DNA of 64,000 bases from Spironucleus salmonicida (lineage: Eukaryota), in NCBI RefSeq assembly GCF_000497125.1, contig NC_090600.1:186001-250000 (forward strand), in the 5' to 3' direction. The notes below the pieces were generated by a model, which saw only the letters and a program-made list of their open reading frames with translations, ran no database searches and was not told the DNA's origin. Every line of letters begins with the position of its first letter. The first letter of the stretch is position 1. Below are positions 591 through 51,871 of the stretch, piece by piece. The translations under genes and the position numbers were made by a program.

Positions 591-1790
591 TCAGTGTGAG
601 CCAAATGCACCAACGTCGTTCAGATTCTTACCTTGTTTCATGAGGTCCCAAACAATTGAAATATCCCGGAGGCGATTAACTTCGCTGATTATTTTATCAA
701 GGCCTTCGTCAACATCTTTTTTGGTTGTCCAGCGGCTGAAACCCATTCTAACTGATGTATGTGCAGCTTCTGCAGGAATATCCATTGCATGAAGCACATG
801 GGACGGTTCCAGTGACTATGAGGTACATGCAGACCCTGTGGAGACACATACATCATCGTCGATTGCCATCATTAATGATTCACCCTCAACTCCCAAGAAT
901 GAGACGTTCATACAGTTAAGAAGTCTTTTAGTTTTATCATCTGGACCGTTGAACTTTACATGCTCTAGTTTATTGATTTTATCAGAAGCATAATTGTAAA
1001 GGCTTTCATAATGCTTATGATCTGACACTAGTTATTTTTGTGAAATCTCAGCTGCTTCTCCCAGTCCTACTACTAAAAATACCGGTAAAGTTCCAGGTCT
1101 TATATTTTGTTCTTAACCACCACCAGAAAATAGTGGGTTCAATCTAGTTCTTCTTTTCACATAAAGAGCACCCACGCCCTTTGGACCATAAATTTTGTGG
1201 CCACTAATCGACATTAAATCTATATTTTCAGTGTTTAAAGCAATTTTTCCTGCCGCTTAAGCACAATCTGTGTGGAAAACAGCACCTGCCCGCTTAGAAA
1301 TTTTTCCTAGTTCCTAAATGTCTTGAATTGAGCCCATTTCATTATTTGCAGCCATGATAGAAACCACGCCTATATCGTTTTTAAACCTATCACAGGCTTC
1401 TTTAAATTCATCCATTTTTATAAGACCTTTATCATCAACATTGATAAAATGAGTTTAATAGCCTTCCGCCTCTAATGCCCTAACTGACTCTAGAACACAT
1501 TTGTGCTCAATTGTTGATGTGATAACATGCTTTTTCTATGCATATCTTGCGGCACCTTTGACTGCAATATTATTTGATTCTGTTGCACCTGATGTAAATA
1601 TAATTTCGCTAGGTTTTGCTCCTATTAGAGATGCGACTTATTATCTTGCTACATCAACCGCTGAGTTCATTTATCTCCCTAGTTAATGTTATGAATGACA
1701 GTTTGCAAAGTTTTCAGTTAAATATGGTACTATTTTTTCTAGAACCCTAGGGTCAATCGGTGTTGTAGCTTAGTTATCAAGATAGATCAT
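591..1790 (-). CDS. NFS1: Cysteine desulfurase IscS/Nfs1
   Basis: [42 protein letters not shown] (PLP Lys), [17 protein letters not shown] (catalytic Cys); joins track fragments 591-797 and 816-1028 once TAR is read as Gln. Confidence 0.96.
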
Positions 1791-4958: not shown

Positions 4959-5936
4959 ATGTATCCCACACTTATATCCCCAGAATGGCTAGAAGCACAT
5001 CATAACTCAACAGATATTCGTATATTCGATGCCACTTTGCATGAAGATATGACTTTATCATAAGCAAAACATGTATTTTCTAAAAAACATGTTAAAAACT
5101 CTTACTAACTTATTTTGAGAGAGGAGAATGCTACGTACGACCAGGTACCAAAACCTTAGGTATTTACAAAATTAGCCACATCATAAGGTCTGACAAGAGG
5201 GGTCCATGCTGTTATTTATGACTCAGATGGAAAATCCGCAATTCGTGCCTGGTGGTTATTATAGTATTACTCACATCCCAAAGTATCAATTCTGTTAGGA
5301 GGGTTGGATGCATGGTCTCAACGTGATTTTCCAGTGGAGTTGAAGAAGTTAGTCAAACCTTCCCCGGCACCCGAAACTGCATTTTATGCAAATCCTCGAC
5401 CTGGTGTCGTAGTTGGTGCAGAGGAAGTGAATCGGTATATTTAACGTGAAAAATAGTAACCGACTGTTATCGAAAATCTTCAGTTTTAGGACAGCATTCA
5501 ACAGTATGAGCTGGCTACAGACTAGAAAAGTGTCTTGGCGAAACTAGATCTAGGAGATTTGGAACCAAAAGATTATGAAATTAAGTAATTGGTATTATCT
5601 GATGACGAATAGACGGATGAATACCAGAATAATGCTTTGTAGACTTAGTGGAAGCTGTTTCTAGATGAAGCTGGCTGGTTTAGGACTGATATTTTGAAGA
5701 TAAAGTCTATATTCAGATAAAATGGGGTTAATATTGAATTACCAATAACAGTAACTGGTAATAATCTAGTTGATATATTACACGTGGTTTTAGCTGCATT
5801 TTTATGTAGTGGGAAAGGTATAGATGGACTCTCAGTATTTTTCGGGGGTTGGGATATTTTCAAAAATGGTATACAGAAAGTATTTGATGATGCAGGAATA
5901 ATTGAAAAAGCACCAGAAGAAGCTGATGATGAGTGA
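4959..5936 (+). CDS. Tandem-domain rhodanese/3-mercaptopyruvate sulfurtransferase-like protein lacking the catalytic Cys
   Basis: MYPTLISPEWL...IRIFDAT, VIYD, AIRAWWLL, ILLGGLDAW; C-domain PITVTGNNLVDILHVVLAAFLCSGK...FFGGW; ends GAG TGA. Confidence 0.88.
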
Positions 5937-13247: not shown

Positions 13248-15854
13248 ATGGAGCAAATTTTAGAAGTGCGCATTAAGCATAATGTTTTAATATCATCTGA
13301 TTCTATACAGAAAATACCACTTACTACATAAAATTCGATATTTAAAATTAATACAGACCCGTACTACCCAGTTGATGTTATGTAATCTTAAAATTCAGAC
13401 CCATTCGCAATTCTTTATAATAAATAGAACAATACATTTCTTATTTATAATAGTTTAGATATGGAAAAACTACTGTTAACTTGTTAGGCTTTTACCCGCT
13501 CTTCTAAATTTGAAGCTTATGTGGCGCTAAAAGATGGAGTTTACCATGTGAAAGCGTTTAATAAAAAGCTTCAGAAAAACAAAATAATTTCGTTAGAATC
13601 TGTTTTTTCACTCTCTTTCAACTAGAAAAACTATCAACTAGCTGTATAAACTACAACAGATACATCAATTTTCGATCTAAATTCGATGAAAAAGCTATCC
13701 GCAGAGCAACCAAATCGTCATTACACCGAACTCATTTCGAATTCTATGACACCAGATAGCTAAAATCTCCCATAAATTCTATATAACTCCTATGGAAACT
13801 GCGAATTTTCATTGCCTGCAAAGATAAGAATTGCTAACTTTGCTGTTAATTTTGATGCATAAAAAGAACGTTAGCTCTTCGGTATAGATAACGATTTAAT
13901 ATATTATTCAGATGGGGATAAAATATACTTCTTTGATGGGATAACTGGCATGTGTATGGGAATGAAGGTTGGCTTTAATTCCCATGCAGTTAGAGTTTTT
14001 GGAAGCAGAATTTATGTGATGTCAGAACGTTAATTTCACATATATGAAATGCCTATATTCGTTAACTTCTAACAACTTCAATTCGCCGAATTTGTTGAAT
14101 ATTCCACTGGGATAATCTGCCTTAATGATGGTATTAGTTATGTTCTCGACTTCAAGTAGAATAAGACCTTCTGTTTTGAAAATTTAGAAGTTAATGACGT
14201 GATAATTCAAAGCGAATTTGTCTATTTAGAAAATGATATTTTATACATCTTGTAGCCGGGTGGTCTTTTAGAAGTTTAACCTATTATTAAAACAATGATG
14301 AGCCCATTATTTTAAGAAAAAACTGCGAATTTTAAGTTAAAAATCGATAAAGATTTATGCTTCGCTTTGGAGCTTGATGAAACTATGGATAATGTCCTGA
14401 AATAATTAGAAGATTTTTAGGTAGAGTTGGATGCTGGCGTTAATGTTGTGTAGTAAAAATTTGGAATAGGAGCTCGAGATTATTCAGTAGATGATGTTTT
14501 AAGTTTAGCAGTAATGAACATAAAATTATGTGATAATTTAATTAGCGATAGATTTTACGAAGAAATGGCACAGTTAAATGCTGCTTAAATATGTGTTAAA
14601 GAAGATTCATTGCAAGTTTCAGTCAGTGATATGAGGTCTATTGAAAAGAGTATAGAGTCTGTATAAGAAAACAAGGAAATTGATAGTAGTAAGACAGTTT
14701 TCGACTATAGTTTAAATAGTCCTATCTAAGCTGCTAATGATAGATCATAAATATCTATTACAGCAGAGACATTTAGAAGTTAGTATTAAATGTCAATGAC
14801 ATCCTAAAGATTACTAAGTAAAAAATCAATAGCCTAGTCTACTGCGATTATGCCTACTTTATAAAAAGAAAATCCCTAATTCAATTCTTCAAGAAAAATA
14901 GATGTAGTTGATTTCATTAAAAAAGATGTTTCTAACAAATTAGAATTACCTTAATAAGAATCCATAAATAAGTCATTAAATAGATCGATTTTAAGCTAAC
15001 CAGTTTAAAATATTTTAAATTCCGAACTAGATTAGTCTGGAAAAATTTTATTACCTAACAAAATGTAATCTATGCATTCTGCATCAGATTCTCGATTACA
15101 CGAATCAATTATGGATTATGAAACCGCAGAAATAGTTGTTGGATTATTTAAGGCAATTAACGATTCAGATCATTTTAGTTTTGTTAAAATTACTTCAGAA
15201 TTAAAGTATAATACTCGTTTATAGATAGCTGAAATTTACGAAAGCTATTACTAATTCTCAATTTAATGTGATATTATGACATATTTTACTGGAAAATTTT
15301 CGTAAATAGTTAGTCTTTATTTCTCACCTATGTATGATGCGTGGAGTTCTTTCCTTGCCACCTAAATAAACGAAAAATCATTTTAATATCTTATTTATCT
15401 AATCTAACCTCACGATAGAGCTAGTATTCAAGATTCATATATAAAAATAACTGGGTAAAGTTTAATTTAAGATATATCTAGTTCTCTATAAAAAAATAAA
15501 GAGTTTCTTATTAAATGGTTTACTTCATAATAAAGTAATACAAACTTGTAATACAATATTAATACAATTGATGGAATCGAGAATTTGCTTACGGAATTAG
15601 ATGTTGCCAACTATAAATCGTATATTTCGACAAACAAAATTACACTAACTACTTTACCAGAGTATTTATAAATTGCGCATAATATGAAAATTGACAGTTT
15701 TGGCATCTCAAGAAAATATGTAATTGATAATGTGCCAAATCTATAGGAAGCTTTAACAGTTCTTGTCAGTGAAAAATCCAAAGGATCATAAATTCGTTTT
15801 GATACTAAAGATTCTTCTATGAATAACTTATTAAACATTTTATGGAATAAGTGA
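13248..15854 (+). CDS. Multidomain protein with beta-rich (WD40-like?) N-terminus and C-terminal annexin/alpha-giardin-like domain
   Basis: 868 aa; LFKAIND...TRLQIAEIYESYY...FTGKFSQIV...MYDAWSSFL and IQDSYIKITGQSLIQDI resemble annexin repeats; ends LNILWNK. Confidence 0.75.
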
Positions 15855-15865
15855 TAAATAATTTT

Positions 15866-17164
15866 TCAGTGAAAAGCTTAGAGCTGGCTTTGTTATGTAG
15901 TTATTTCTAATCCTCCACTTTCACAATCACCTACATTTTCTGTTTTTCTAGACTGATCTTCTATGTGTTTAAGTCCATCTCTAGAAATATGTAGTGTATC
16001 AAACCATACGGCATACACGATACCCACGCCGAAGCCGAAGAAGTAGGCGGGCCTGAGTGGCCAGCCAATAACGTCAGGCGAGAGGGGGTTCCCTTTGTGG
16101 TCCGTGCACTTGAGTACGCCGATGATGAGGTAGTTATAGATGAACATTTGGAAGTAGGTATAGAAGGCCGCAGTGAAGGGGACGCAGAGGAGCAGGAAGA
16201 GCACAACCCACACGAACATGCGTACCCAGCGGTTCTTGCCGTCCGTGGTCTTGCAAAACCCGTCGTAGAAGATGGGGGCAAGGCGCGTTCCGGTGATCTG
16301 GAATGGCAGCCAGGCGAGGGCGGCGAGCGACCAGATGTGGTGACCGACAAGGTGGGGGTCGCGCTCGCCACCGTTGGAGAAGGGCCTGATGATGACGTAG
16401 TAGTCGAAGAGGGCGGACAAGAGGTAGCAGATCATGATGGGGACCTGGACGCCGGCGAAGAGCAGCCCGAACTTGGACAGGTCGTTCTTGAAGCCGCTCA
16501 GGTTGGCGCGCTTGAAGATGCCGTGGTTCATGAGGTTGACGAGGGGGATCCACTGGATGTAGCCGCCTATCTGGTTGAGGTTGGAAAGGGGCGACAGGGC
16601 GCGGCCGATCCAGATGCCCCAGACGGTCCAGGTGATGATCTCGGCGCAAACGCCAGCGGCGAAGGGGTCGACATCCTTGAAGAGGTGGTAGTTGCCGAGG
16701 ATGGTGTGGGAGGTGATGATGACGAAGGTGAGCAGCTGGTGCATGCCGATGAGCGAGCCGTAGGCAGGCTTGGTGAAGATCACGGTGCCGCTGGAGTCCT
16801 TGCGGGTGTACCATACGAAGTCGAAGATGGCGCACTGGACGAAGATTGACACGAAGGAGGCGGCCAGGAGCGCGCTGAAGTAGGCCGCGAAGACCACATA
16901 GCGGTTCTGCCTGGAGCACCACTCCTTAATCTTAGGATAGCCGCTCATGCACGGGAAGAAGAAGACCTGGTGCACGGCGACCTCGGTTGCGATGGAGGGG
17001 CCGTAGAGGAGCAGGTTCTTCTTGTTGAGGCCGAGCACGAGGTGGTAGAAGAAGATCATGGCCACGCCGAGTCCCATGCAGACTAATACATCCAACAACA
17101 TAGCTGGGATTGCTATAATAGCTCTTATCATCTTGGATTTACCTTCAGTCCACTGATAAGGCAT
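15866..17164 (-). CDS. Multi-pass membrane protein of unknown family, copy A (432 aa)
   Basis: Track ORF 15893-17164 extended through TAA(Gln) to TGA at 15866; about 10 hydrophobic segments. Confidence 0.92.
16008..17102 (-). repeat. Left arm of a 1095-bp GC-rich inverted repeat
   Basis: Reverse complement of 23417-24511; translations in the main, alternative and antisense frames match between copies in the ORF track. Confidence 0.95.
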
Positions 17165-17789
17165 TCGAGGAATAAAAAATGAATGTTTGAGACATACTAT
17201 TATTAGAAAATAAAATTAACTTACGAGTTTTTTCGTATACATAAACTTATATAATATTAATCATATACTGACGACTTAGTTATTGTGATTGAATTAATAA
17301 TTCAAATAATGAATATAATGGATTAATTTCATTCATATAGTACTTTTAGGTATGCGAGACCTGTAAAATAAACTGTAAAAATAATAATATGCAGAAATAG
17401 GATGATAAGCTGAAATGAATTTACTGATACACTTTATTTTGATAAATTATTGAAAAAATTATCAAAAGTGCAATTGTTTAATTATTTATATAGATAGTAT
17501 AACTTTTACAGTGGTTATTACTAGTTTAGATTGGTTGCAGATTATTATATTTTATGATATTATAGAAATAAGCAAATTATATTTGTATATTATTATATCC
17601 ATTTAGATAGGTTAATCTTATAATCAATAATGGGTTATCGAATATTAGTTCTATATATTAATAATTATTTTTGTTTGTTGTGTTGAAAGATTTTTATAAT
17701 TGCTATATAGTATTTATTAAAAATAAATTAACATTATTTTAACAACATTAATATATCCATATAACCAATAGTAACCTATCTTGAATTAA

Positions 17790-19283
17790 ATGCTGGAGGA
17801 ATTTAATTCTCTTAAATCAATAGCCAATAAACCATAAATTAACACATGTAATGTAACTATCTCTTCATGTATGCGTAATTAAATTCTTTAGTTTTATTAA
17901 CCTATTTAAACGAGTCAATGTAACAAAAACTTAGCATATTTTTTTAAAAAATGTTCGCGCAAAAATTATCAAGACTTGGAACTGCCGGAAATATTAGAAA
18001 ATTAATGGATTAATAATTTTGTTGAAAATTAACTTAATTTTAAGCTTGATTTTTTACCAGTGGAATTTGAGTATCTACGAGTCTATAATAGTGGAAAACA
18101 CATGTGTGTTTCTGCTTAAAGCTCAACAGGAAGAGTTTAAATTACAAAGTCTGCAGAAGATCCTCTAGATTCTGGATTTAAAGTTTACTACCATAAAGAT
18201 AGATAATAATTTAAAAAATTGGTATTCTTGTTTTTAGATTTTCATTAATCTCCCCTTTAATATAGTTATTTAATTAATTATTATGCAGAATTGAAGATCC
18301 AATTAGTTATACCAGATATATAACAAATTTTACATATATCTTTAAAACATCTTAAATAATCATTCATATCAGAATTAAAACAAAATCTATGTTTATTTGC
18401 TAGACATTACTCCAGCGATTTTTCAGTAATGTGTCATGGTGCTAGTAGTTATATAGGATGTTTACTGAAAAATTAAAAACTATTTACAGGTAAGTTAATT
18501 TTATTAAATCCTATAATTTCAGTACATATTCCTGAGAAATAAGAAAAACGAGAAGCTACTGTGTAAGCTGAAAAAAATAATGATTATCATGACTCATTTT
18601 CTATTCATACAGATTCTGGGAATAGTGTTGCATAAAATTCGTCGTTTTAATAATTATAAAACATAGATTCTTTTGGAAATAGTTATATAAGTGAGGCATA
18701 AAAACCGAAATAATTTACTATTAAAATGATGCCTATAATTAAATTACGTACAGAAACATTTATTGCAAATCTTTAATCGAATGACATAGATATGATTATT
18801 GAAGAAGAAAACGAAACGGCATAATTAGTTGAAATCATTGATGAAGTTATTTAATTAGTTTATCAAGAATAAAACGTATTACAGTTATTTGGTGAAATAA
18901 ATTATAAACCTAGAAAATCATTAGAATAATTCTAAGGTATTACAAATTTCTTTAGACCACTTTAAGCTTAAATTAAAGATTTAAAATCATCATTACCCTT
19001 GATGTTAGTTATGTGTAATGCAAGATTAGTATAAAATTATATGGAAAATATGCCCTAGAATAAAAAATTCTATAAGTAAATCATAAATTTCCTATTTATT
19101 ACTAGATAATCTGTGACAATACCATAAAATACAATTATACTAGTAGGAAGTCATAATAGATTTCTAAATAATACACTTTTACGTAAATTGTATGCTTGTG
19201 AAAATATTACAACTAGAACTATTCTAGGAGTGGGGTATGATGTTTTAATGTCGGCTTTTTAGACTGTAGCTAAATTTATTTGA
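17790..19283 (+). CDS. Alpha/beta-hydrolase-fold-like protein, probably degenerate
   Basis: 497 aa; LVFLFLDF...LVIPD...FSVMCHGASSYIG...KLILLNP...IILVGSHNRFL...GVGYDVL. Confidence 0.6.
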
Positions 19284-20041
19284 TTTTTGTATTATTTCAC
19301 TCCTACAGCTATTCTTAAATGTAGTTTAAATACTGTATTATATTCTATTTCTTGTTTCCAAAAATATTATTATCTACTATTTCTGATAAAATAGGTTTTA
19401 AATAAATTTATTATTTATTAGTGAACCATCTTTAATAAATAATTTCTCATACATATCTTACAAATGTGATCAAAGTTCTACATCTTTAATCGCTTTTATG
19501 AAAGAAATTAAATCATCATTACCATTTTCTGAATAATATTTTATTATTGGGTCAATATTGAAAGATTATAATAACTGCAACCATATTAAATCTAGAATTT
19601 ATAGCTAGTTATTCAGTCTGGTAGTCTTAAACTATGATAAACATATTGTGTATATCTATAATTGAAGTTAAAAATTAAAGAAAGTTAATCTTCTAGATTT
19701 TAAATTTATTATTGCCCTTAATGAAATCTAAACCTGTGATAAAGGCCATGAGTTTGTAGTTTTTAAATTTATAGTAAAAAATGGTAATATGTATCTGATT
19801 AAAAAGAGCTATAAAGTAATCGAATACTATAAATATTATCCAAGTCTCATAGGTAAGTAATCACCAACGACTTTTAAAATAATATAATATCATATAAAGT
19901 AGCATAAGAACAAATGCAAGACTAATAAATTACTTAAGGTTTATTAAAACGTAATTTCCTCGAGTTCAGTCGTGTTAAATATTAACTTATTATGATATAA
20001 TTTATCTAAATAGCGTAAAGTAATATCTCTTTCCTAATTAA

Positions 20042-20326
20042 ATGAGTTTTATGCAAAAGGGCCGCACACCTGGAAATTTCTATAATATGGTTGACTGGAC
20101 CTCTTGCTAAACTTAAGTTGCATATAAATCAAAATGGAACAAGGGTTTTGTTACAGATTTTGCCAGATAGCGTAGCCGCGATGAGCCAATATTTTATGTT
20201 GGAAACGAATCATGGGGCTTAATAAACTCTTGGAATTCTTGCTAATCCTCAAAAATCACTTGCTACTAGCCAGTTCGCAAACCAATAAACACGAATATCA
20301 AGAAACGACCTTCAACTGCAAAGTGA
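20042..20326 (+). CDS. Hypothetical protein (94 aa)
   Basis: Open frame MSFMQKGRTPGNFY...RPSTAK, ends AAG TGA. Confidence 0.65.
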
Positions 20327-20368
20327 CTAATATTATTTTATAGTATATACCATTAAAATTTTCAGATA

Positions 20369-20797
20369 ATGACATCTGAACTAGAACCTACTACGAATGC
20401 TCAAACTGAGCAGATCCAGCCATAATAAATTTAACAACTATAAGCTGCACCAGTAGTCTAAATTTCAGCGCCAACACAGCTTTCTGCCGACTAAATTTCC
20501 CCAAAACGAATGCGCTAGAAATTTAATTGCAATTTGCCATGTTCATCTGATTGTTGTGACTTATTCTTTGCAAATTCGCCAGCAACTGATGAAAATAATT
20601 GCTGTTTGGCGACCGGAAATTTCTTTTGCGGTTGCGGTCTAATTTGCGCTGGATTATGCGACTGCGGAAGCAGTTTTTAAAAAAGTGATTTATGCTGCGC
20701 TGGATGGGGTACATTTGTGCTTAGCTTTATAGGGTTAGGGTGGATCATTGCGATTTTATAGAGTGTGGCCATAATGTGTGAAGATGGAATTTGGTGA
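20369..20797 (+). CDS. Cys-rich membrane protein, SPEC3/Stum-like
   Basis: 142 aa: Q/P-rich N-terminus, GNFFCGCGLICAG...CCAGWGTFVLSFIGLGWIIAILQSVAI. Confidence 0.7.
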
Positions 20798-20837
20798 AAA
20801 ATGTATTATTATATAATATTATTAGTATTATGTATAA

Positions 20838-21368
20838 ATGAGTGGTTTTGACCGCCTCCCAAAATCATGTCAAAATAAAGTTATTAAATCCTATATTAGC
20901 CCTTAGACTAATCATCAACTTATTTTAGATGGTTTTCTAGATAAATTAGATAGATAGTTGATCCCACTCAATCCAAATTCACCTTTTGAGCCTCGACTGG
21001 ATTCAAAGCAAATAAATGATCCTGTTTTATCTATTAATTTAGAACTCGAGAAGAAGAGATAGGAAGCATATGATGCACGACCAAAATTTGATTTTTAAAA
21101 AAATCCTTATGGTAGGATCCGGCATAAGAAAGTTAATTACCAACCAGCAACTCCTGATAACTAAAAGCGCCTTCTACATAATGATTACGCTATCTCTGCA
21201 TAGTTGACCACTAGCTAAAATCTTCGATGTTCGCTAGAAAAAATTGGGGGTGTAAATTTGACCTAGAGCATGAAATTAAGAAAAGTCTAATGCCGATATT
21301 TGGATAGATATGAATTCAATAAAAAGATAATTCGATAAGAAGAATAAGTTGAAAAAGAAAGAATCTGA
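20838..21368 (+). CDS. Hypothetical protein (176 aa)
   Basis: Open code-6 frame MSGFDRLPKSC...EKERI. Confidence 0.7.
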
Positions 21369-21521
21369 AGATCTTTTGTAAAAATATTCTATTTTTATTT
21401 ATATTTAAAGTTATGGTTATATAAATAATTACATCTAAGTGGAAACAATAATTTGTATATATAAATTAAATGAAATAGTATTTAATAATATACTTATTTC
21501 TTTTTCCATTCCTTAAAGGAG

Positions 21522-22637
21522 ATGGCTACAGCAATTGTCTTATGCTCTGGTGGTTAAGACTCATTGTTAGTTATTAAATTATTGTAAAAAGCTGGGATTA
21601 AGATTATTGCGATTAATTTCATTTCATATTTCTTTGGAGGGCCATCTAAAAAATTAGACTTATTGGCAAAAGAATTAGATATCCCGGTTGTTTTTGTTCC
21701 ATTTCAACAGGCACAATTATAAATTACAATAGATCCTAAATTTGGTAGAGGTAAAAATTTTAATGCTTGCATTGATTGCCATGCCTTGATGATTAAATAT
21801 GCCGGTTCTTTGTTAAAATAATATAATGCTGATTTTATAGCTACTGGAGAAGTCTTAAATTAAAGACCAATGTCTTAAAATATGGCATCTTTGAAGAAGG
21901 TAGCTAATGAATCTGGATTCGGAAATTTATTAGTAAGGCCTTTATCAGGGTAACTTCTTGAAATTACAGAAGCTGAAACTTTAGGTTTTATAAAGAGAGA
22001 AGATATGCGTTCAATTTAAGGTAGATCATAAACAGGATAAACTACGTTAGCCGCAGAATTAGGGATGAGCTATATGATGTCTGGACATGGTGGTGGATGC
22101 TTATTAACTGATTAAAATTTTGGCCGTAAAATGAAAACTGTTGAGACAGATGGATTTTTAAAGGCTACTTCCTTCTTGCCTTATATTTTATAACATTCTA
22201 GATTTTTACGAATAGATAAAGGTAAATACGCGTTCGTTGGTAGAAATCATGAAGAAAATTAATTATTCACACCATTACATAAGTTTGGTACAATATTTAT
22301 AGCAGATGCAATTACTCCTGGCCCTAGAATACTTTTAGTAGAAATGAATGAAACTGAATTGATTTATACACCAGTTTAGTAGGATATTGAAGATGTTGAA
22401 TTAGAATCAGGCAAATGCTAATCTTGTAACAGCTAATAGGATTTCAATATAGAATGGCTTTCTGGTTCATACGAAGCTAGTTAATAGTTATAAATAATTG
22501 GTAAAGAAATATATTCTATATTTTCTAAACATAAAGGAACTAAAGGTGGTTAAGTTTTAATTAATGGAATTTTATCAGATTTTGAGTCGGTTACTATTGA
22601 AAGGAAGGCTGAACTTACAAATTTAATGATTTAATGA
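21522..22637 (+). CDS. Bacterial-type ThiI/MnmA-like PP-loop tRNA sulfurtransferase
   Basis: AIVLCSGGQDSLL (PP loop), PKFGRGKNFNACIDCH, ADFIATGEVLNQRPMSQ, LLVRPLS, GGGCLLTD, FVGRNHEEN. Confidence 0.88.
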
Positions 22638-22644
22638 TTTTTAA

Positions 22645-23103
22645 TCACTTAACATATTTTCTATATTATCTATAATTCAATTTTGATTGATATTAATCTG
22701 GTCCTGGTGTTAAATCTATTTAAGGCTATTAATATTTAGATTTAATAAGTATTTCTACACCTTTACTACACTTTATATTATACTAATTCGGAGCAGGGGT
22801 TAAATCTTATTTAAAATACTACCTTCTACACTTAAATACATTCACCTACTATTAATTACATTAAATAGTATTATTTAAAGGTGAATAATCTTAAGAACTA
22901 GGAGTGACAAAATTTGTGCATCTTCTAATAAGTTGTTAGCTTTTTGGTGGTAATTTAGATTATAAAGTATTAAAAGACGATCTTATATTGTATGCTCCTG
23001 GGCCAGGTGTAATAAAATTATTAGATTAAAAAGTCCGACAATGCAGAGTTGATGTATGAGAAATTCTTTTATTTAAAGGTAACATATTATTCAAAGAACT
23101 CAT
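22645..23103 (-). CDS. SHIPPO/ODF3-type PGP-repeat protein
   Basis: TPGPGAY, TPSSQDY, TPAPNQY and TPGPD repeats. Confidence 0.85.
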
Positions 23104-23345
23104 TTTTATAAATATAAAATAATAATAAAAATATAAATACATAATTTATTTATTTCATGTAAATTTTTTGCAGAACTAGTAATATTATATACTTATAGTC
23201 ATTATTTAAATATGAAAATGTTTTGTGATTTTAGATTTACAATAGACAATAAATCAAATGAAATAAATATCAGCACGTTAATTTGATTATTCTTTAATCA
23301 TTGTTATATTACTAGTATAAATTCAATAACGACATAAGTCAAATA

Positions 23346-24665
23346 ATGGTAATAAATGAGTTTATACATGACAATGCTAAGAAAAAATCATTAAGATGTT
23401 TTGTTGCTATATTCTTTATGTTGTTGGATGTATTAGTCTGCATGGGACTCGGCGTGGCCATGATCTTCTTCTACCACCTCGTGCTCGGCCTCAACAAGAA
23501 GAACCTGCTCCTCTACGGCCCCTCCATCGCAACCGAGGTCGCCGTGCACCAGGTCTTCTTCTTCCCGTGCATGAGCGGCTATCCTAAGATTAAGGAGTGG
23601 TGCTCCAGGCAGAACCGCTATGTGGTCTTCGCGGCCTACTTCAGCGCGCTCCTGGCCGCCTCCTTCGTGTCAATCTTCGTCCAGTGCGCCATCTTCGACT
23701 TCGTATGGTACACCCGCAAGGACTCCAGCGGCACCGTGATCTTCACCAAGCCTGCCTACGGCTCGCTCATCGGCATGCACCAGCTGCTCACCTTCGTCAT
23801 CATCACCTCCCACACCATCCTCGGCAACTACCACCTCTTCAAGGATGTCGACCCCTTCGCCGCTGGCGTTTGCGCCGAGATCATCACCTGGACCGTCTGG
23901 GGCATCTGGATCGGCCGCGCCCTGTCGCCCCTTTCCAACCTCAACCAGATAGGCGGCTACATCCAGTGGATCCCCCTCGTCAACCTCATGAACCACGGCA
24001 TCTTCAAGCGCGCCAACCTGAGCGGCTTCAAGAACGACCTGTCCAAGTTCGGGCTGCTCTTCGCCGGCGTCCAGGTCCCCATCATGATCTGCTACCTCTT
24101 GTCCGCCCTCTTCGACTACTACGTCATCATCAGGCCCTTCTCCAACGGTGGCGAGCGCGACCCCCACCTTGTCGGTCACCACATCTGGTCGCTCGCCGCC
24201 CTCGCCTGGCTGCCATTCCAGATCACCGGAACGCGCCTTGCCCCCATCTTCTACGACGGGTTTTGCAAGACCACGGACGGCAAGAACCGCTGGGTACGCA
24301 TGTTCGTGTGGGTTGTGCTCTTCCTGCTCCTCTGCGTCCCCTTCACTGCGGCCTTCTATACCTACTTCCAAATGTTCATCTATAACTACCTCATCATCGG
24401 CGTACTCAAGTGCACGGACCACAAAGGGAACCCCCTCTCGCCTGACGTTATTGGCTGGCCACTCAGGCCCGCCTACTTCTTCGGCTTCGGCGTGGGTATC
24501 GTGTATGCCGTGTGGCATGATTGTACAAATTTAGCTAATATTCAATATATATAGAGTCGAATAGATACTCCAATAGATAGCAATCGTATATCTAATTGCT
24601 CAAAACATATATTTGAGGCGTCTAACAGTGTATCAATCTCTTTTAATGAATAGATAACCTTTTGA
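23346..24665 (+). CDS. Multi-pass membrane protein of unknown family, copy B (439 aa)
   Basis: Track ORF 23346-24554 extended through TAG(Gln) to TGA at 24663-24665; core identical to copy A. Confidence 0.92.
23417..24511 (+). repeat. Right arm of the 1095-bp GC-rich inverted repeat
   Basis: Runs TATGTTGTTGGATG...GTGTATGCCGT and matches the reverse complement of 16008-17102. Confidence 0.95.
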
Positions 24666-24831
24666 TATAGTTATTTTAAACCACTAGCAGTTTTTATTTA
24701 ATTTATTGATTTAGTTTTATTGTTTGATCAATCTTTAAAAATAGAAACATCGTGTTAATAATTAAATATATTTTTACTTATAAACTAATTTTTATAAATA
24801 TTATAATTGTTTAAATATAAACTATCTAATC

Positions 24832-25362
24832 ATGTAAATGGATGAAGAAATACAGAGATTACTATTTTAACTTAACTTTAGAATTTCAGGTTACATGGAA
24901 GCTTTTGTCCTATCATAAGATCTAGATGTTACATTTTAAGAATACAAAAGATCACTAACTGATATACATCTTCTCAATATAGCAGTTCCTGAAAACTTAG
25001 CTTTTTCTTCCACTGCCTTACGCTCCAGTTCAAATTCAGCAGGATCAGTAAAGCCATAGACTGTTATAGTATCTAAAAAGTTTTGGTCGACAGAAGAGAA
25101 CTATGTTCTTTAGATATCGAAATAGTAGAATAGTCAAAGAACATGGCAAGAAATATCAGAATTTGTAAAAACTAAAAATGCTAAATAATGTTGTCAACAG
25201 TGGCACAGAGTAATATTAGCTAAGAAAAAAGGACGCTGGACCGAATTAGAAGATGAAGAGCTACTTAGCTAAAGTAGTTATGGAACTATAGCCATAGAAG
25301 GAAGGTCACAACTGTAAATCGCAAATAGGTTAAAATTGTTACAATCAAAGAATAAAAATTGA
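24832..25362 (+). CDS. Myb-like DNA-binding protein
   Basis: KFWSTEEN...TWQEISEFVKTKNAKQCCQQW...KKGRWTELEDEELL; alternative start at 24838. Confidence 0.88.
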
Positions 25363-37355: not shown

Positions 37356-40300
37356 TCAGTCACTCAAACTAGCGAATAAAGCCACAGACCTCTTAATCCA
37401 GTGCCTGGCACTTCCAGATTGACACGGAACAGCCACATTAAGTAAGAAATTTGTTGAATGCCCAGTAGTGCTTAAAGTACCGAATCTGGCGAGAGTTCGG
37501 TAGCACGGGCAGCAGTATAAATTGTCATCGACATCAGTATTTTATGCCTCTTTAGATCCGACAATTATAGGAATTAAGCGGATAATTGGCATTTTAGAGT
37601 AAAGTTCACGAGGACGTGCCTCTACTAACATTCCCAGTTCCATATCGAATCTCGAGGCTTCTAAATAAAGCCCAGAAATATAAGACCCATCGTTAAGAAC
37701 ATCTGGTTAAAATGCTGAATTACCAGCAGTGAAGATCCTTGCCTCTAAAACGTTTTTATTTTCAATTAGAGCTATATCATCAATTGTGGCTTAACAGATC
37801 TCAAAATTGTAGCCTATTGTATCAATTGCGATTGTATACTTACGAGCATAATTCTATAAGACTGATGTCAAATAACCTTAAGCAAAGAAAAATGAGGAGA
37901 TGTGGAAGATTCCTGGCTTGCCTATTTCGATCCAATTTCTAAAGAAGCTAATACGTAAATTCATATCTTAAAGATAGGAAGAAAGTGGTTTTAATGATGG
38001 ATATGAATATTTAGCGAAAGCTTCTGGTAGCTTGTTCATCATTACAGATAAAAATATATCTTCTAGTTCTGATGAGAGAATTGTAAGGCCCCGTAGAGCT
38101 CTTACAAGTTCCTTTAGGTTTAATTGCATTGTATCAATGAGTACATTAAATCTACCACATTCTTGGACTAAAAGCGAGTTCAGAGATTCTTCAAAACGGG
38201 TAGGATATCTAAGTGAGATTGCCTCTAAATCGAATGAGTCCGGTAGTTGCTTGATGATACTGTTGATTACGTCCGTTTCAGAGTTAACTGGTGCAGATTC
38301 TGTATTTGTTTCTTCCTTAGAAACAGCATCATCAAGTTTTCCTGTTTAAAGGATCAAAATCTCAGTTAATAAGTTGTTAGAATCTTGTCTATCAGATGTG
38401 ATATTGGAGTTGGTGTTTAAACCAAGATTATTAGGATGACATTCAATTGAAACGTGATCATTAATGTATTCTAAATAGTCTCTATAACCTAAGCCATTTG
38501 TAAGTTGATGTAACAAATATTCAGGTGTTTCAGATGTTTTTTATTCCATAGTAGGGAAAATCCAATTTTCTTAGAATATTGATGGATTCAAGAAATCTTC
38601 AACAATTGCACTAACACAACGTTAATCAGTAGCATCTGTAACGCAACCTCCAATATTTATTTCAGCGAAAAGATATTATAATGCATGTTTAGGATAAATA
38701 TCAGGGTATTTGTCTAAGAAGATTGGTAATTACTAAATACAAATACCTATGTCTGCGGCAGACCAAGGATAAGGTGTGTTGAATCCAATTGGACCATACT
38801 TTTTCCGTTAGAGTAATACCGAATAGAATAACGATAAAGAATATGTTAATTTCTTAAATTTCTCCATATTCTCAGGTACTTCACATGCTTCATTCATTTA
38901 TTTCTCAGTAATATTAGTTTCCCACACTCGTAATAAATTAGCTTTAAGCGAGTTCGGATTTTCAACAGAAACTTTGACTGAATTTTGTAATATAGCAACT
39001 GGAAATTCAGGAGTAGGTTATGCTGACAACCATAAACGGAAATCACGATGAACAGATGCAGGATCTGCTTAAAGCGCTTCTAATGTTAATTGTAATTATT
39101 TTAAGAAACCTACAGATAAATGACAGTTTTGTAATACACACCAATTACCTCTCTCAACAAATGTTGTGACTAAGTTTAATGCAGTTTTTTCAATTCCACG
39201 ACCTAATGATAATACTTATATCTTTTTATCCATGCGCATTTGCTCAGCAAACATCATAAGATCATTAATAGGATCTGCCATATCAGCTAACAAGAATAAT
39301 ATAGGTTATATATTATTAGAATCCTTATAAGATTTTTCTAAATTGAATACTTATGGCTTGTTGAAGTCAGCACCCAATGTCTTTTCGATAAATATCCTCA
39401 TATATGCTAAAACCCTATCTGGACGTAAAGTTGAGATGGGTAAAAATCTCTAGAATTCAGACAGTTATGTGTCATAAGGGGAAGGCAATGCACATTCTTC
39501 TGGCTTCTATGATTCAAACATATCCTTCCAAGCTATTTATGCCTTTAAATCTCTGAAAGAATGAGATATTCCTTTAAATGCTGATCCTAAACTTTCTAGT
39601 TCACAAATAGACTTCCAATATTTCTCTTCTAACCAATCGTTGCATGGATTTTATGATGTAGCCTCACGCATCTTTGACCCTATTAGTAAAAATTTCATCT
39701 CTGTATTAGTAATCTTATTTTCAGATTTCAAGATTCTAAGAGCGATTAAGAAAGCAAATAATGGTTTATGCGACTCAAACAAAGATCTGCATATATTTTG
39801 ATACAGATAAAGAGTAAATGCTTCTATAAGGTTCTTTAAGCGAGTTTCTAAATCATCACACTATTCAGTACCTTAAATTGATTAAGTATATAGCTAAATG
39901 TACCAATTTAAAGAATATTGATACATAAATTCAATTTTAACAAGATCTTAAACGCAAAAATACAAAATAGATGCCCTATTAGACATTGGGACATACTTTT
40001 AACGAGTTTAATCGATCTCTGCTTCAGTTATTTCAGACTCTTTGACTTTTTCGGTAATCTCCTTTGACGTCTTCTAGGAAAGAGACAATGTATCAATAAG
40101 TGTTTCATTTTATAAAATATCACCTGTCGATGTAGATAACAGGTAAAGTACTTTTTCAGATAATTATTTAAGTTCTAAACGCATCTTACTATTGCTTACT
40201 ACTAGACTAGCCTTGAGAGCCTCTTGGTCGGGTCTTTCTAAAGCGACGAGAACACCTAAAAGCTAATCAGATAGACCTAATTGAGTAATAGCGAAGTTGA

Positions 40301-43300
40301 TTACAGTTACTTTAACAAATGATTCTGCTGAGTAATTAGGATTGGCTAAATGAGTACAGAGATATAGTTTGAATGATGGATTATAAGGTATAGCTGAATC
40401 ACCCAATTTAACACATATTTAGTTTGATGCGTCTTTAATGAAATTCTAATCTAAAACTGTGTTAAGAGATGGATCTATTTCATCAGTAACATTAATAATT
40501 AATAATATTTTACCAAATCTAATACAATTTTCTAATGTTCTTAATAAATCTTTATCCGAGGCTTTTGCTACTTCAAGACCTTACTCTTTATAAAAATTCT
40601 TTAAAAATTATTGTGCTTATTGTTCTGGATCTATTAGCAAGCAGTATTTTTAACTAGTAAACATAAAAGAAGAGTTTTCCATAGAATGAGTATCAGATGG
40701 TAGTTTATACTAATTAATGTAATTCATAATCGTAACGTCATCTGATAAGATATCTGTTACTTTCATATTTCCATTCTTTTCAGTTGATGTTGGTATTTAT
40801 AATTCATTTAGTTTAGCAACCCAGTCAATAGAAATTCTATACCTAAAATCGCTAGTAAATGCTCCTTGATAAATAACCGCAGACGCCCCAAATAAATTGT
40901 CACCTAAAATATGTTTGATAGATTTATCTAGTTCTACAAGTTATTCTTACCATCTTACTTATTCTCCAGACAGTGAAACAATAAGTGTCTGAGCTCGATC
41001 AAGTCTTTTAGCAGTATCATCTACTTATAATGACAGTTATTCTTTCTACTCAACAGCTTTATTAAATTTGTCTTCTAATTCTGCGATTTTATTTTCCACT
41101 TCTGTTAGTCTAGCAACTGTCTCTGATAAACTCTTTTCGACAATAACTAATTCTTCTTATGCCTCTGAAAGTTTTTATCTTTTAGGTATGACCTATAAAT
41201 TGATATGATAGTATTTATACATAGCAATTACGAAAGCACAAAGACCTGCTGCCGCTAAAGACTTCTTCTACATCTACTATGGTATAAATTCAGGATCATT
41301 AATATATTTGTGAAGTTTCTTGATTGTATCCGCAGGAATGTTAGATTTATCATAGGTTCTAAGACTGGTCATCATAGTAGCAGAAGCATTTAACAATTTT
41401 TTAGCTTCGTCCCAATAATCTTCCATTTATTTACCCACATTATTAGGGTCGTTGATCTTTTTAGGTTTTATGCTAAAAAGAATACAAACAGACTCCATAC
41501 ATTACTTAACCGCCGCAGGTGGATTATTGTATGAGCCAAGTTCAGTAAAGTCATTCTTGTTAAGTTTGTCAAGAGCTTCTAAAGCAGCATCTAACAGTGG
41601 CTAAGCCTATTCTAAATCTCTTTCCGCATCTTTTTTAATTGTATCACATTCATTAAATTTACTAGACGCAACTTATTTCTCTCTAGCCACAATTTACCTA
41701 GTTTAATCTGCTTACTCTTTATCTTGTTCTAACTAGACCATCATATTATCTACATTAGCAGATGTCTCAACTAAAACTGGTTATAAATTAGTAAGGTCAA
41801 TTTACATTTAGGCAACTTTTTCTTATGTTTCTTTTAATTTGAATAGACCAGTTGATAATTACATTTTATAGCTATTAATCTTATTATAGTTAACTTGCAA
41901 AACAGAGGTGAAAAGTTTTAACAAATTTAAGAATAATGTTGGAGTAACATGATTAAATCTACCTTATTCTTCTTTATACAACTACGTAAATGATTCTATT
42001 GAAGAATGAACATAAACACAAAATTCTATAATTTTGTCTTAAATAGATTATTTAGTAAAGTTAGTATTTAATACACATTATTCTTCAATAAATTTTCCTA
42101 AAAATTCTAATTATGATGTATCTAGTAATCCACCAGCTTCTTAACCTCCATTAAAGTTAAATATTTAGATACCTACATCTTTAAGAGCATCGGATGGCCA
42201 ATTAAACATATAGTCTATCGAACAACAATTTACCAATGATGGGAACTTTCGTAAACGATTTCTAAGGCTAGTACCAGATGGGGAGAAGCACAATACTAAA
42301 TGAATATTTTATTTAACTCTAGCACAATACGTATCATATAAGTTAGGTTTTGTAACTGGTAATTGATTTTCCATGCATATTTAAGATATTGAAGCTTCTT
42401 CATAAATAGTAGCCAAATCGGCAGGTTCATATATTGCCTACACATCACATGTATTTAACAATATTGAAATATCTTCCAGTTATTAGTCATTAAATATGTG
42501 TTAGTCAGACAGTAATAAAATTTATTATTTACCAGTTAAACCAGATTTCATAACAAACTTCTTGATGTCTTCGTGCCATTCGGATATTCCATATCCCTTC
42601 TTTAACTCAATAGTAACTATGTCACAATTTAACCAATACGCAGCTAATCTAGTCAAAGACTAACGACCTACACCACCTACACCAATAAGTAATATATTAG
42701 ACGATGATTGACGAAGAATTCTAACTACCCTAGACAAATGATGTACAGCAGATTTAAATAAAACTAAGTTCATTTATTAACCCTCTTCGTTACATTTATT
42801 CAGCTCTCCGACTAAAATTTTCTGTAAAGCATTAAAATCAGTAACATCCTAATAGAGTCTATCCTATCCTATAGACAAGAAATCTGCGAACAAAATATCT
42901 TCAACACATCTATCAGTGCCGAGAATATCAGATGTAGCAATCGATAATTTCGAAATTAGAACTTTATCAAGCAGCTAATTGAACCATTTTTAGTCATTCA
43001 CATCGATTAACCTGTCAGAAAACACTCTTTAGGCCTCGTGAATGAACAAGGTAAGTATGTTATTTGTGCATTATTTAGGTTTTAACTGGACACCATTTAT
43101 ATCATTTGCGATAGATTTTGGCTCGACCATCAAAAAGCCTTAAAATAACTTGCTCAAGTCACGCAAATTAAATGTATAGTGAGTCTTAGCAGGAGTTGGT
43201 AAAAGGCCAGTTCTTGTTGAATTATAGACTTCTATTCCCATTGGAACTACTTTTCTGCACATTTGAATCATTGGAGATTGAATCTCTTCGCTGAAAGAGG

Positions 43301-51389: not shown

Positions 51390-51871
51390 ATTTTAAAATT
51401 GCGGAAAGAATAAATTTAATATTAAAATATATATATAATAATACTGTTTAGCAGTGATACTAAATGTTATATCTTTATAGAAAAGCTTTTTTAAAGTTAA
51501 AATTAAATAGCAATTCCTATAAATTTTAATTTAAAGATAAATATAGTTAATTTCATACTTAAAAGATTTTATACCTAAAGAATCTTATTTGGATATAATT
51601 TTGAATAGATAAAGATTCATACACATGCTAGTAGTTAACATAAATTATTATTATTATTATTATATTAATGAAAATTGTTATTCAAATTATTGTATCAATT
51701 ACATAGAAAAACTAGTATGAGAATATTTGATAACAAGTATCTATTAAATAATATTTCAATATAATTCAGTTAAATTGTATAATAATATTGTATAGCTTTA
51801 AAACAGTTAAGTTTTGCATAAGTATAATTCAAATATTATGGTATTGTAATTCATAATAAGCCTAATTTAAA

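What the first reader, a model, noticed from the sequence alone, without database searches (positions are those of the whole stretch)
17103..23416. Candidate invertible 6.3-kb segment that would reshuffle promoters/N-termini and C-termini of a membrane protein
Seen: the two genes point outward. Both promoters and both unique N-termini lie inside the repeat-bounded segment, and both unique C-terminal tails lie outside. Established: a crossover between inverted repeats inverts the DNA between them. Inference: one crossover would give two new in-frame chimaeras (N-A/C-B and N-B/C-A) and place each tail under the other promoter, a shufflon-like switch in a eukaryote. It would also flip the enclosed genes (hydrolase-like, Stum-like, ThiI-like, SHIPPO). 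No recombinase gene is visible in the window, so general homologous recombination would be needed.
Basis: inference. Interest (0 to 1): 0.72.

Follow-up and report, generated by a model that had tools for sequence, protein, structure and literature searches.

The report
Inverted gene pair homogenised by conversion
Two old, back-to-back copies of a membrane-protein gene in a fish parasite share a letter-identical, unusually GC-rich middle but have different AT-rich ends, which looks like ordinary copying between duplicates that is common in this genome, not a dedicated gene-flipping switch.

Summary
The geometry is real. Two divergent genes (432 and 439 aa, diplomonad code) share a 1,095-bp identical core (16008-17102 / 23417-24511) around a 6,314-bp spacer, so a crossover would give in-frame chimaeras. 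The switch reading is not supported. GC3 is 0.90 in the core and 0.20 in the unique ends. Both N-termini descend from the family's N-terminus, so the duplicate is old and the core is probably kept identical by GC-biased gene conversion (inferred). The arrangement is common: 9 inverted near-identical groups lie in 460 kb of this contig, among them two tubulin-ligase paralogues with an identical 254-aa core in 26-44% identical flanks. No tyrosine or serine recombinase was found in the genome. Contigs of two probable RNA runs cross the whole core unbroken in the assembled N-A/core/C-A form. A rare inverted allele is not excluded, because no long reads were available. B's tail has lost the conserved family motif. 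The organism is most likely Spironucleus salmonicida, where GC-rich duplicates are already published. This scan noted the same conversion pattern before at other loci of this genome.

The parts
15866..17164 (-). Gene A, 432-aa multi-pass membrane protein (P0001); keeps the family-type C-terminal tail
   Evidence: ORF under table 6; contigs of probable RNA runs X5 (15877-17152) and X8 (15876-17169) span it; AlphaFold2 model pLDDT 80, mainly helical
16008..17102 (-). Left arm: 1,095-bp core, identical to the right arm, GC 0.59, GC3 0.90
   Evidence: one 1,095-nt record with no other letters in DNA run X1
17103..17164 (-). Unique AT-rich N-terminus of A (21 aa), homologous to the N-termini of B and of the C6 paralogues
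   Evidence: shuffle test without the first Met: A-B 0 of 3000, A-C6 6 and 15 of 3000
15866..16003 (-). Unique AT-rich C-terminal tail of A (45 aa), with the SRDG motif shared with a Hexamita homologue
   Evidence: A versus C6 tails 0 of 2000 shuffles each, versus Hexamita P0007 2 of 2000; sequences
17103..23416 (.). 6,314-bp single-copy spacer (GC 0.27): the segment that a crossover would invert
   Evidence: one 6,374-nt record joined to the core at both ends in X1
17790..19283 (+). Enclosed 497-aa ORF; 'hydrolase-like' label not confirmed
   Evidence: only a sub-threshold Ig-like hit, E 0.034
20369..20797 (+). Enclosed 142-aa cysteine-rich ORF with a hydrophobic C-terminus; 'Stum-like' label not confirmed
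   Evidence: 0 families; contigs over it in X5 and X8
20838..21368 (+).
   Evidence: contigs 20856-21335 (X5) and 20934-21309 (X8); no Pfam family
21522..22637 (+). Enclosed ThiI-like (PP-loop) gene, 371 aa
   Evidence: PF02568 E 2.6e-5, over cut-off
22645..23142 (-). Enclosed SHIPPO-repeat gene
   Evidence: PF07004 E 6.3e-6, over cut-off
23346..24665 (+). Gene B, 439 aa (P0003)
23346..23416 (+). Unique AT-rich N-terminus of B (24 aa), homologous to the family N-terminus
   Evidence: B versus C6 paralogues 0 and 3 of 3000 shuffles
23417..24511 (+). Right arm: 1,095-bp core, identical to the left arm
24516..24665 (+). Unique tail of B (49 aa); no detectable homology to A's tail, SRDG motif absent; degenerate or read-through of former non-coding DNA
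   Evidence: A-B tails 784 of 2000 shuffles score as high; no frame and no DNA similarity; P(no TGA in 49 codons) = 0.42 at background frequency

Best explanation
An old inverted (head-to-head) duplicate of a diplomonad membrane-protein gene under mosaic concerted evolution. SHOWN: identical core, diverged ends, a sharp GC step at the identity boundary, and the same pattern at other paralogue pairs. INFERRED: double-strand breaks in one copy are repaired by homologous recombination from the neighbouring copy, mostly without crossover. This keeps the conserved membrane core identical. Mismatches are resolved towards G/C, so the repeatedly copied tract has climbed to GC3 0.90. The faster-evolving ends diverged too far to be copied and stayed at the AT-rich background. 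Gene A is the intact, apparently dominant copy. B keeps a family-type N-terminus but has lost the conserved tail, so it is either a minor variant or a decaying copy whose core is kept intact by conversion. Inversion of the spacer is a possible by-product of the same recombination, not a purpose-built switch.
For: GC3 326/364 in the core versus 28/141 in the ends (Fisher p 7e-52; codons are not independent). Fourfold-site GC 0.87 versus 0.08 and 0.15; 0 of 9 core Gln codons are TAA/TAG. GC3 is lower at the tract edges than in the middle. Both N-termini are homologous to outgroup paralogues. The six family members in G000 form three pairs, each near-identical within the pair. In the C7 pair GC falls from about 0.7 to about 0.2 where identity ends; in the C6 pair the core is 96-100% identical and the ends 33-67% per 100 columns. 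Nearby control: two divergent TTL-family paralogues at G000:C5:123137-127159 share an identical 254-aa core within flanks 25.7% and 43.8% identical, GC3 0.45 versus about 0.20. 8 of 9 inverted near-identical groups in C5:1-460000 have GC 0.41-0.66; the ninth, an 11-kb block, is at 0.24-0.31, so near-identity alone does not bring high GC. Highly expressed genes of this species centre at GC3s about 0.4 (PMC1805757), so translational selection does not explain 0.90 in part of a gene. Metamonads are reported to lack NHEJ, and parasitic diplomonads also alternative end joining (PMC8516963); a Rad51/Dmc1-family gene is in G000.
Against: No second isolate or close species was available, so the standard proofs were not run: paralogues grouping by species, and GC-biased direction of fixed changes. 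In the C6 pair the GC step inside the gene is weak (ends GC3 0.35-0.6, core 0.35-0.9), and several 95-99% identical flanking tracts there have only GC 0.26-0.40. B's tail shows no homology to A's, which a truncated duplication would also give. GC-rich DNA may itself favour recombination (PMC8981503), so cause and effect can run both ways. Many GC islands in the sample had no partner within the 660 kb fetched; their partners elsewhere were not sought.
Confidence: 0.75

Rival explanations
1. Functional inversion switch: recombination between the arms flips the spacer at a useful rate and puts the conserved or the non-conserved tail under the other promoter.
For: In-frame geometry. 1,095 bp of perfect inverted identity 6.3 kb apart is a good recombination substrate. 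The two tails differ strongly. Eukaryotic precedents exist: yeast flip/flop switching between inverted repeats (PMC6692504) and the CTRB1-CTRB2 inversion allele (PMC6145291).
Against: No PF00589 or PF00239 match in G000, with controls ringing in 14 and 12 of 14 genomes. Eight other such groups lie in 460 kb, holding kinase-like, RRM and TTL genes. In 2 of 2 probable RNA runs laid, one contig crosses both junctions in the N-A/core/C-A form, whereas DNA run X1 breaks at both junctions. The 90% protein cluster holds only A and B, no chimaera (weak).
Confidence: 0.07
2. Recent truncated inverted duplication with no long conversion history: the core was copied lately and B's ends were captured from the landing site.
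For: 100% identity. B's tail is unrelated to A's and fits random read-through (P 0.42). No DNA similarity in the 300 nt upstream of the core (346 of 500 shuffles score as high).
Against: B's N-terminus is homologous to the family N-terminus and scores higher against a C6 paralogue than against A. It does not explain why A's own core is GC-rich while A's own conserved tail is AT-rich. The 11-kb near-identical block has background GC.
Confidence: 0.08
3. Conversion is real, but the high GC has another cause: a local mutation or repair-synthesis bias, or GC-rich tracts being the ones that keep recombining.
For: The size of the shift (GC 59% versus 27-29%) is far above the roughly 4 points in primate X palindromes (PMC8981503). 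Regional mutational bias was the original suggestion for this genome's GC islands (PMC1805757).
Against: The step follows the identity boundary to within a few codons inside single genes, in both copies and in other pairs.
Confidence: 0.08
4. Assembly or polishing artefact: two diverged copies were homogenised in silico.
For: Exact identity over 1.1 kb can arise in polishing.
Against: Contigs of DNA runs X1 and X4 show the core with no other letters, and X1 has four distinct flanks meeting one 1,095-nt record (X1 may be the source of this DNA, X1 and X4 are one sample, and contigs drop rare variants). An artefact would not create the GC3 step.
Confidence: 0.02

Closest known systems
Mosaic concerted evolution of gene pairs by gene conversion (BMP8A/B, DDX19A/B, TUBG1/2; PMC2720389, passages read)
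   Same: Two neighbouring paralogues, part homogenised and part diverged, with raised GC3 in the homogenised part; BMP8A/B are also inverted.
   Different: Here the shift is extreme (GC3 0.90 versus 0.20), intron-less and within one ORF; persistence across species could not be shown.
GC-biased arm-to-arm conversion in primate X palindromes (PMC8981503, passages read)
   Same: Inverted arms above 99% identity around a unique spacer; arms richer in GC than flanks.
   Different: Arms here are gene-sized (1.1 kb) and end inside the coding sequence; the GC excess is about 30 points instead of about 4; the direction of substitutions was not tested here.
GC-rich duplicated regions of Spironucleus salmonicida (PMC9509377, parts 1-2 of 3 read; PMC1805757 and PMC2874811, passages read)
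   Same: Duplicated regions are reported at 44.7% GC versus 30.7%, mostly single-gene stretches; sharp GC islands and genes with GC3s near 1 are reported and called hard to explain.
   Different: In the text I read these papers do not describe steps inside single genes or attribute them to GC-biased conversion; gene conversion is raised only for the cysteine-rich surface-protein families.
Human CTRB1-CTRB2 16.6-kb inversion (PMC6145291, passages read)
   Same: Oppositely transcribed paralogues with an identical middle; the inversion swaps promoters and 5' ends, gives hybrid genes and changes the isoform ratio.
   Different: There both alleles are observed, as an inherited polymorphism and not a switch; here no second orientation has been seen.
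Yeast flip/flop (FF1) mating-type switching, e.g. Ogataea polymorpha (PMC6692504, passages read; PMC5720833, search listing only)
   Same: Recombination between one pair of inverted repeats inverts the enclosed region in a eukaryote.
   Different: It is signal-induced and moves genes into centromeric or telomeric silencing; neither feature is shown here.
IncI1/IncI2 shufflon (Rci, PilV; PMC5430464, passages read)
   Same: An inversion would exchange C-terminal parts of a protein.
   Different: The shufflon uses a tyrosine recombinase, 19-bp sites and partial C-terminal ORFs joined to one constant gene; none of these is present here.

Membership tests
Shufflon / site-specific DNA inversion system | Dedicated site-specific recombinase (Rci-type tyrosine, or serine invertase) | tested here: not met
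   PF00589 and PF00239: 0 matches in G000; controls 14 of 14 and 12 of 14. A Rad51-family gene was found by the same search despite TAA/TAG codons. A very divergent enzyme could be missed.
Shufflon / site-specific DNA inversion system | Short (about 19-bp) inverted recombination sites bounding the segments | tested here: not met
   The bounding repeat is 1,095 bp of coding sequence; definition.
Shufflon / site-specific DNA inversion system | Partial C-terminal ORFs exchanged onto one constant N-terminal gene | tested here: not met
   Two complete ORFs, each with its own family-type N-terminus.
Shufflon / site-specific DNA inversion system | Several orientations coexist within a clone | tested here: inconclusive
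   Only short-word contigs were available; they cannot phase a 1,095-bp repeat in DNA and drop rare forms. The RNA-type contigs give the assembled form.
Yeast flip/flop (FF1) inversion switch | One pair of inverted repeats flanking the invertible region | tested here: met
Yeast flip/flop (FF1) inversion switch | Orientation-dependent silencing next to a centromere or telomere | tested here: inconclusive
   The locus lies about 200 kb from the contig start, where a tandem array sits (C5:1-3309; presumed telomere, not read); centromere positions are unknown.
Yeast flip/flop (FF1) inversion switch | Reversible, signal-induced inversion | not testable with these tools
   Needs orientation assays under different conditions.
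Inversion polymorphism between opposed paralogues (CTRB1-CTRB2 type) | Oppositely transcribed paralogues with an identical middle and different 5' ends | tested here: met
Inversion polymorphism between opposed paralogues (CTRB1-CTRB2 type) | Both alleles observed in the population | not testable with these tools
   The 8 listed runs come from 2 studies and are all contigs; no long reads.
Mosaic concerted evolution with GC-biased gene conversion | Homogenised segment inside otherwise diverged, homologous paralogues | tested here: met
   Core 100%; N-termini homologous but diverged. At the C-terminal side homology of B's tail was not detected.
Mosaic concerted evolution with GC-biased gene conversion | Raised GC3 confined to the homogenised segment | tested here: met
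   326/364 versus 28/141; GC4 0.87 versus 0.08 and 0.15.
Mosaic concerted evolution with GC-biased gene conversion | Paralogues group by species in the converted part and by orthology in the diverged part | not testable with these tools
   G000 has no relatives held; Hexamita homologues are about 30% identical and came without DNA.
Mosaic concerted evolution with GC-biased gene conversion | AT-to-GC excess among substitutions fixed in both copies | not testable with these tools
   Needs a close outgroup; the C6 paralogues are only 70% identical in DNA.
Known membrane-protein folds (MFS, GPCR-like and others) | Structural match to a solved family | tested here: inconclusive
   Model pLDDT 80. 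Foldseek best E 0.02, TM 0.16. VIA-align best Z 7.7, rmsd 6.8, 232 aligned, to a designed helical barrel; best natural proteins Z 4.0.

The most novel reading that the evidence does not exclude
In a lineage reported to lack end joining, recombination between gene-sized inverted arms yields crossovers often enough that this spacer, and the many similar ones (9 groups in 460 kb), flip within parasite populations. Here the flip would put the non-conserved B tail under the apparently dominant A promoter and act as an on/off or relocalisation switch for an uncharacterised membrane protein: a recombinase-free, genome-wide shuffling of promoters and protein ends.
Probability: 0.08. Interest if true: 0.7.

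Novelty: new member of a known kind. Interest (0 to 1): 0.27.

Why it matters
As an inversion switch it is unsupported. As a clean intragenic case of conversion-linked GC enrichment it bears on a puzzle stated in print, the sharp GC islands and GC3-near-1 genes of S. salmonicida (PMC1805757, PMC2874811), and gives a small locus where conversion bias and crossover rate can be measured. The link between duplication and high GC is already published for the species (PMC9509377), the mechanism is known from other taxa, and this scan has recorded the pattern at other loci, so this locus adds one more example. A side result is a membrane-protein family, named only in diplomonads among the hits looked up, with a confident model and no clear match among solved folds.

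Tried and rejected
Cover gaps (not evidence): X5 and X8 show no contig cover over 23172-23416 (B's N-terminus) and no listed record running from the core into B's tail; tables 7 and 8 were cut (21 and 46 rows not shown), and B's tail was outside the stretch laid (15400-23416). No listed holder is on record as RNA, so X5 and X8 are RNA only by guess. 4 of the 8 listed runs were laid. Depth figures of contigs were not used to rank genes. X4's record 9 joins B's N-terminal side to the core where A's side has low depth, which shows that such joins can come from pruning of a weak branch. Protein function: Pfam gave 0 families for A, B, the C7 copy and three distant homologues; the PDB sequence search gave 0 at E<=1; ESM Atlas best score 0.79, TMEM117 0.78, below its lead threshold; no solved family stood out in the fold searches, which does not show a new fold. 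Ku (PF02735): 0 matches in G000, but the control rang in only 1 of 14 genomes, so this is weak. Horizontal origin of the GC-rich core was rejected: the named homologues are Spironucleus and Hexamita proteins; 8 of the 10 distant hits looked up are unnamed metagenome sequences, 13 further hits were not looked up, and the C6/C7 paralogues show the same kind of enrichment. Translational selection was rejected: it would cover the whole gene, and highly expressed genes have GC3s about 0.4. The GC-rich opposite-strand and shifted ORFs over the arms are taken as shadows of GC3 bias. Literature: 'Spironucleus' + 'gene conversion' (9 listed) and 'diplomonad/inversion/inverted repeats/Spironucleus' (11 listed) showed no title or abstract on invertible segments in diplomonads; supplements were not consulted.
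Full report
Observation. The window holds one long inverted repeat. Its exactly identical part is 16008-17102 against 23417-24511, 1,095 bp, around a 6,314-bp spacer, 17103-23416. The window is G000:C5:186001-250000. It reads with TAA/TAG as Gln: long genes such as a 4,782-aa ORF appear only under table 6. A paralogue from the same genome is named in databases as a Spironucleus salmonicida transmembrane protein, so the organism is most likely that diplomonad fish parasite. The arms are the cores of two outward-pointing genes: A, 17164->15866, 432 aa, and B, 23346->24665, 439 aa. They share 366 residues; the N-termini (21 and 24 aa) lie in the spacer and the tails (45 and 49 aa) outside. Of the enclosed genes, ThiI and SHIPPO pass Pfam's cut-offs; the hydrolase and Stum labels found no Pfam support.

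The arms are 59% GC, the spacer 27% and the rest of the window 29%. The step lies inside both ORFs: GC3 is 326/364 in the core and 13/67 and 15/74 in the ends; fourfold-site GC is 0.87 against 0.08 and 0.15, and none of the 9 core Gln codons is TAA or TAG. GC3 peaks mid-core and is lower at the edges; several of the first codons inside the identical tract still end in A or T.

The duplicate is old at the N-terminal side. With the first Met removed, the N-termini of A, B and the two C6 paralogues are all related (0 to 15 of 3000 shuffles reach the score), and B scores higher against one C6 copy than against A. A's tail is the family-type tail: it matches both C6 tails (0 of 2000 shuffles each) and a Hexamita homologue (2 of 2000), with a shared SRDG motif. 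B's tail matches none convincingly (57 to 1629 of 2000), in no frame and not in DNA, and 49 codons without TGA are expected by chance with P = 0.42. So B has lost or replaced the conserved tail. This last point also fits a truncated duplication and is counted against my reading.

The arrangement is common here. The family has six members in G000 in three pairs: this one, an inverted pair about 95 kb apart on C6 inside a large complex duplication, and a direct pair 7.75 kb apart on C7. Each pair is near-identical in the core. In the C7 pair GC falls from about 0.7 to about 0.2 where identity ends; in the C6 pair the step is weaker and some near-identical flanking tracts are not GC-rich. In the 460 kb of C5 that I examined (1-460000, chosen as the stretch around the window), 14 inverted matches of at least 500 bp and 97% identity fall, by my grouping, into 9 groups, this one included; 8 have GC 0.41-0.66 and one, an 11-kb block at 97.8-99.4% identity, has 0.24-0.31 (matches split at 10-kb locus edges may be missed). 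Over all 660 kb examined, with the C6 and C7 parts chosen for their paralogues and so biased, duplicated bases are 41.8% GC and the rest 30.5%. The clearest parallel is 80 kb away: two divergent TTL-family genes share an identical 254-aa core inside flanks that are homologous at 25.7% (378 aa) and 43.8% (48 aa), with GC3 0.45 inside and about 0.20 outside. There a recent duplication cannot explain the pattern. For the species, duplicated regions are published at 44.7% GC against 30.7% (PMC9509377, parts 1-2 of 3 read), and sharp GC islands were earlier described as unexplained (PMC1805757 and PMC2874811, passages).

Does it flip? No tyrosine (PF00589) or serine (PF00239) recombinase was found in G000, while controls rang in 14 and 12 of 14 genomes; one Rad51/Dmc1-family gene was found. 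Eight runs from two studies hold the stretch, all as contigs; I laid four on 15400-23416, which contains one arm. In DNA run X1, which may be the source of this DNA, the core is a separate 1,095-nt record with no other letters, met by four flanks: the repeat is real but its orientation cannot be phased. In both probable RNA runs laid (X5, X8; two samples, one study; the RNA label is a guess) a single contig runs from A's N-terminus through the core into A's tail (15877-17152; 15876-17169). My inference: at both junctions the A branch dominates, whereas a common inverted form would send A-promoter transcripts into B's tail and break the contig at the core's end, as happens in X1. Contig assembly prunes weak branches (X4's record 9 shows this), so a minority inverted allele is not excluded. 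The 90% protein cluster holds only A and B, which is weak support.

Mechanism. The best reading (0.75) is mosaic concerted evolution. Shown: identity, divergence of the ends, the GC step at the boundary, and recurrence at other pairs. Inferred: repair of breaks from the neighbouring copy, mostly without crossover, with mismatches resolved towards G/C. Metamonads are reported to lack NHEJ and parasitic diplomonads also alternative end joining, leaving homologous recombination (PMC8516963, passages); my own Ku search was negative but had a weak control. The same signature is used as evidence of conversion in mammalian gene pairs (PMC2720389, passages) and in primate X palindromes, where the GC excess is only about 4 points (PMC8981503, passages). 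The cross-species tests that would prove it could not be run. Rivals: a functional inversion switch (0.07), a recent truncated duplication (0.08), conversion with another cause for the GC (0.08), an assembly artefact (0.02).

Comparison. It is not a shufflon: the recombinase, the 19-bp sites and the partial C-terminal cassettes (PMC5430464, passages) were tested and not met. If the inverted allele exists, the closest parallel is the human CTRB1-CTRB2 inversion, which swaps promoters and first exons of opposed paralogues with an identical middle (PMC6145291, passages); regulated inversion between one pair of repeats is known from yeast flip/flop mating-type switching (PMC6692504, passages). Identical head-to-head and tail-to-tail gene pairs are also described for Giardia muris VSP genes (10.1101/870949, passages). 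PMC3916229 (passages) gave only genome-wide GC figures.

The protein. It has no Pfam family and no PDB sequence match. A profile search found 25 proteins at E<=0.001; of the 10 distant ones looked up, 2 are Hexamita inflata proteins and 8 are unnamed metagenome sequences. A model from 30 sequences is confident (pLDDT 80, pTM 0.81) and mainly helical; the N-terminal identity boundary falls inside the first long helix (residues 11-43), and the C-terminal one at the end of the helix at 374-393, followed in A by a helix at 395-411. Fold searches gave no clear family. A transporter or channel role is a guess from the multi-pass architecture.

Earlier notes of this scan, consulted after I had set my reading, report the same GC-rich conversion pattern at 8 shown loci on other pieces of this genome (47 notes fit the search words), including one where an 'invertible switch' reading was also set aside. 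They are unchecked AI notes and not counted as support; they led me to PMC8981503 and PMC2720389.

Verdict. Observation confirmed; the switch reading is possible but unsupported; this is one more member of a known kind. Interest 0.27. Most novel reading not excluded: functional, recombinase-free flipping, probability 0.08, interest 0.7.

Noticed in passing
L063:2956-7358 (G000:C5:122956-127358): Two divergent, 5'-overlapping ORFs of TTL-family (tubulin-modifying ligase) paralogues share an identical 254-aa core in flanks only 26-44% identical; GC3 0.45 versus 0.20. A clean control for conversion between old paralogues.
   Followed up: yes
G000:C5 123137, 202004, 357332, 372279, 392234 and C6 868967: All 6 of the inverted pairs with a readable gene (8 inverted pairs examined) are head-to-head; the C6 family pair inside the large duplication is tail-to-tail. 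Small sample, but a bias towards divergent orientation may reflect how these pairs form or recombine.
   Followed up: no
G000:C6:740001-870000 (L011-L023): A region of more than 100 kb of nested inverted and direct duplications (90-100% identity), including an inverted repeat centred near 797-800 kb and an 8.65-kb tandem repeat; it holds the C6 pair of this gene family.
   Followed up: partly
L009:1492-2679 and L010:1492-2679 (G000:C7): The C7 paralogues (GC3 0.95) also have a shifted amino-acid composition: GARP 0.31 and FYMINK 0.18, against about 0.19 and 0.35 in Hexamita homologues, suggesting the GC pressure reaches replacement sites.
   Followed up: partly
window 15866-17164: The protein family (Spironucleus, Hexamita, unnamed metagenome sequences) has a confident multi-helix model but no Pfam family and no clear match among solved folds.
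   Followed up: partly
G000:C5:136102-147075 / 166336-176291: An 11-kb inverted duplication at 97.8-99.4% identity with background GC, possibly recent; the left copy contains a 9-bp-period, almost pure A/T tandem array at about 139159-139585.
   Followed up: no
L023:8888-9880 and L024:2774-6166 (G000:C6:868888-876166): A 100% identical GC-rich 1-kb tract shared by a 1,130-aa ORF and a shorter, apparently truncated inverted copy.
   Followed up: no
window 37356-51704 (-): A 4,782-aa ORF with a dynein-heavy-chain-like P-loop region (label from recall; not searched).
   Followed up: no
window 24505-25362 (+): A Myb-domain ORF (PF13921 over cut-off) directly downstream of gene B; its true start is probably near 24839.
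   Followed up: no
window 591-1790 (-) and 4959-5936 (+): ORFs that look like a cysteine desulfurase and a rhodanese-type sulfurtransferase (labels from recall; not searched), in the same window as the ThiI-like gene.
   Followed up: no
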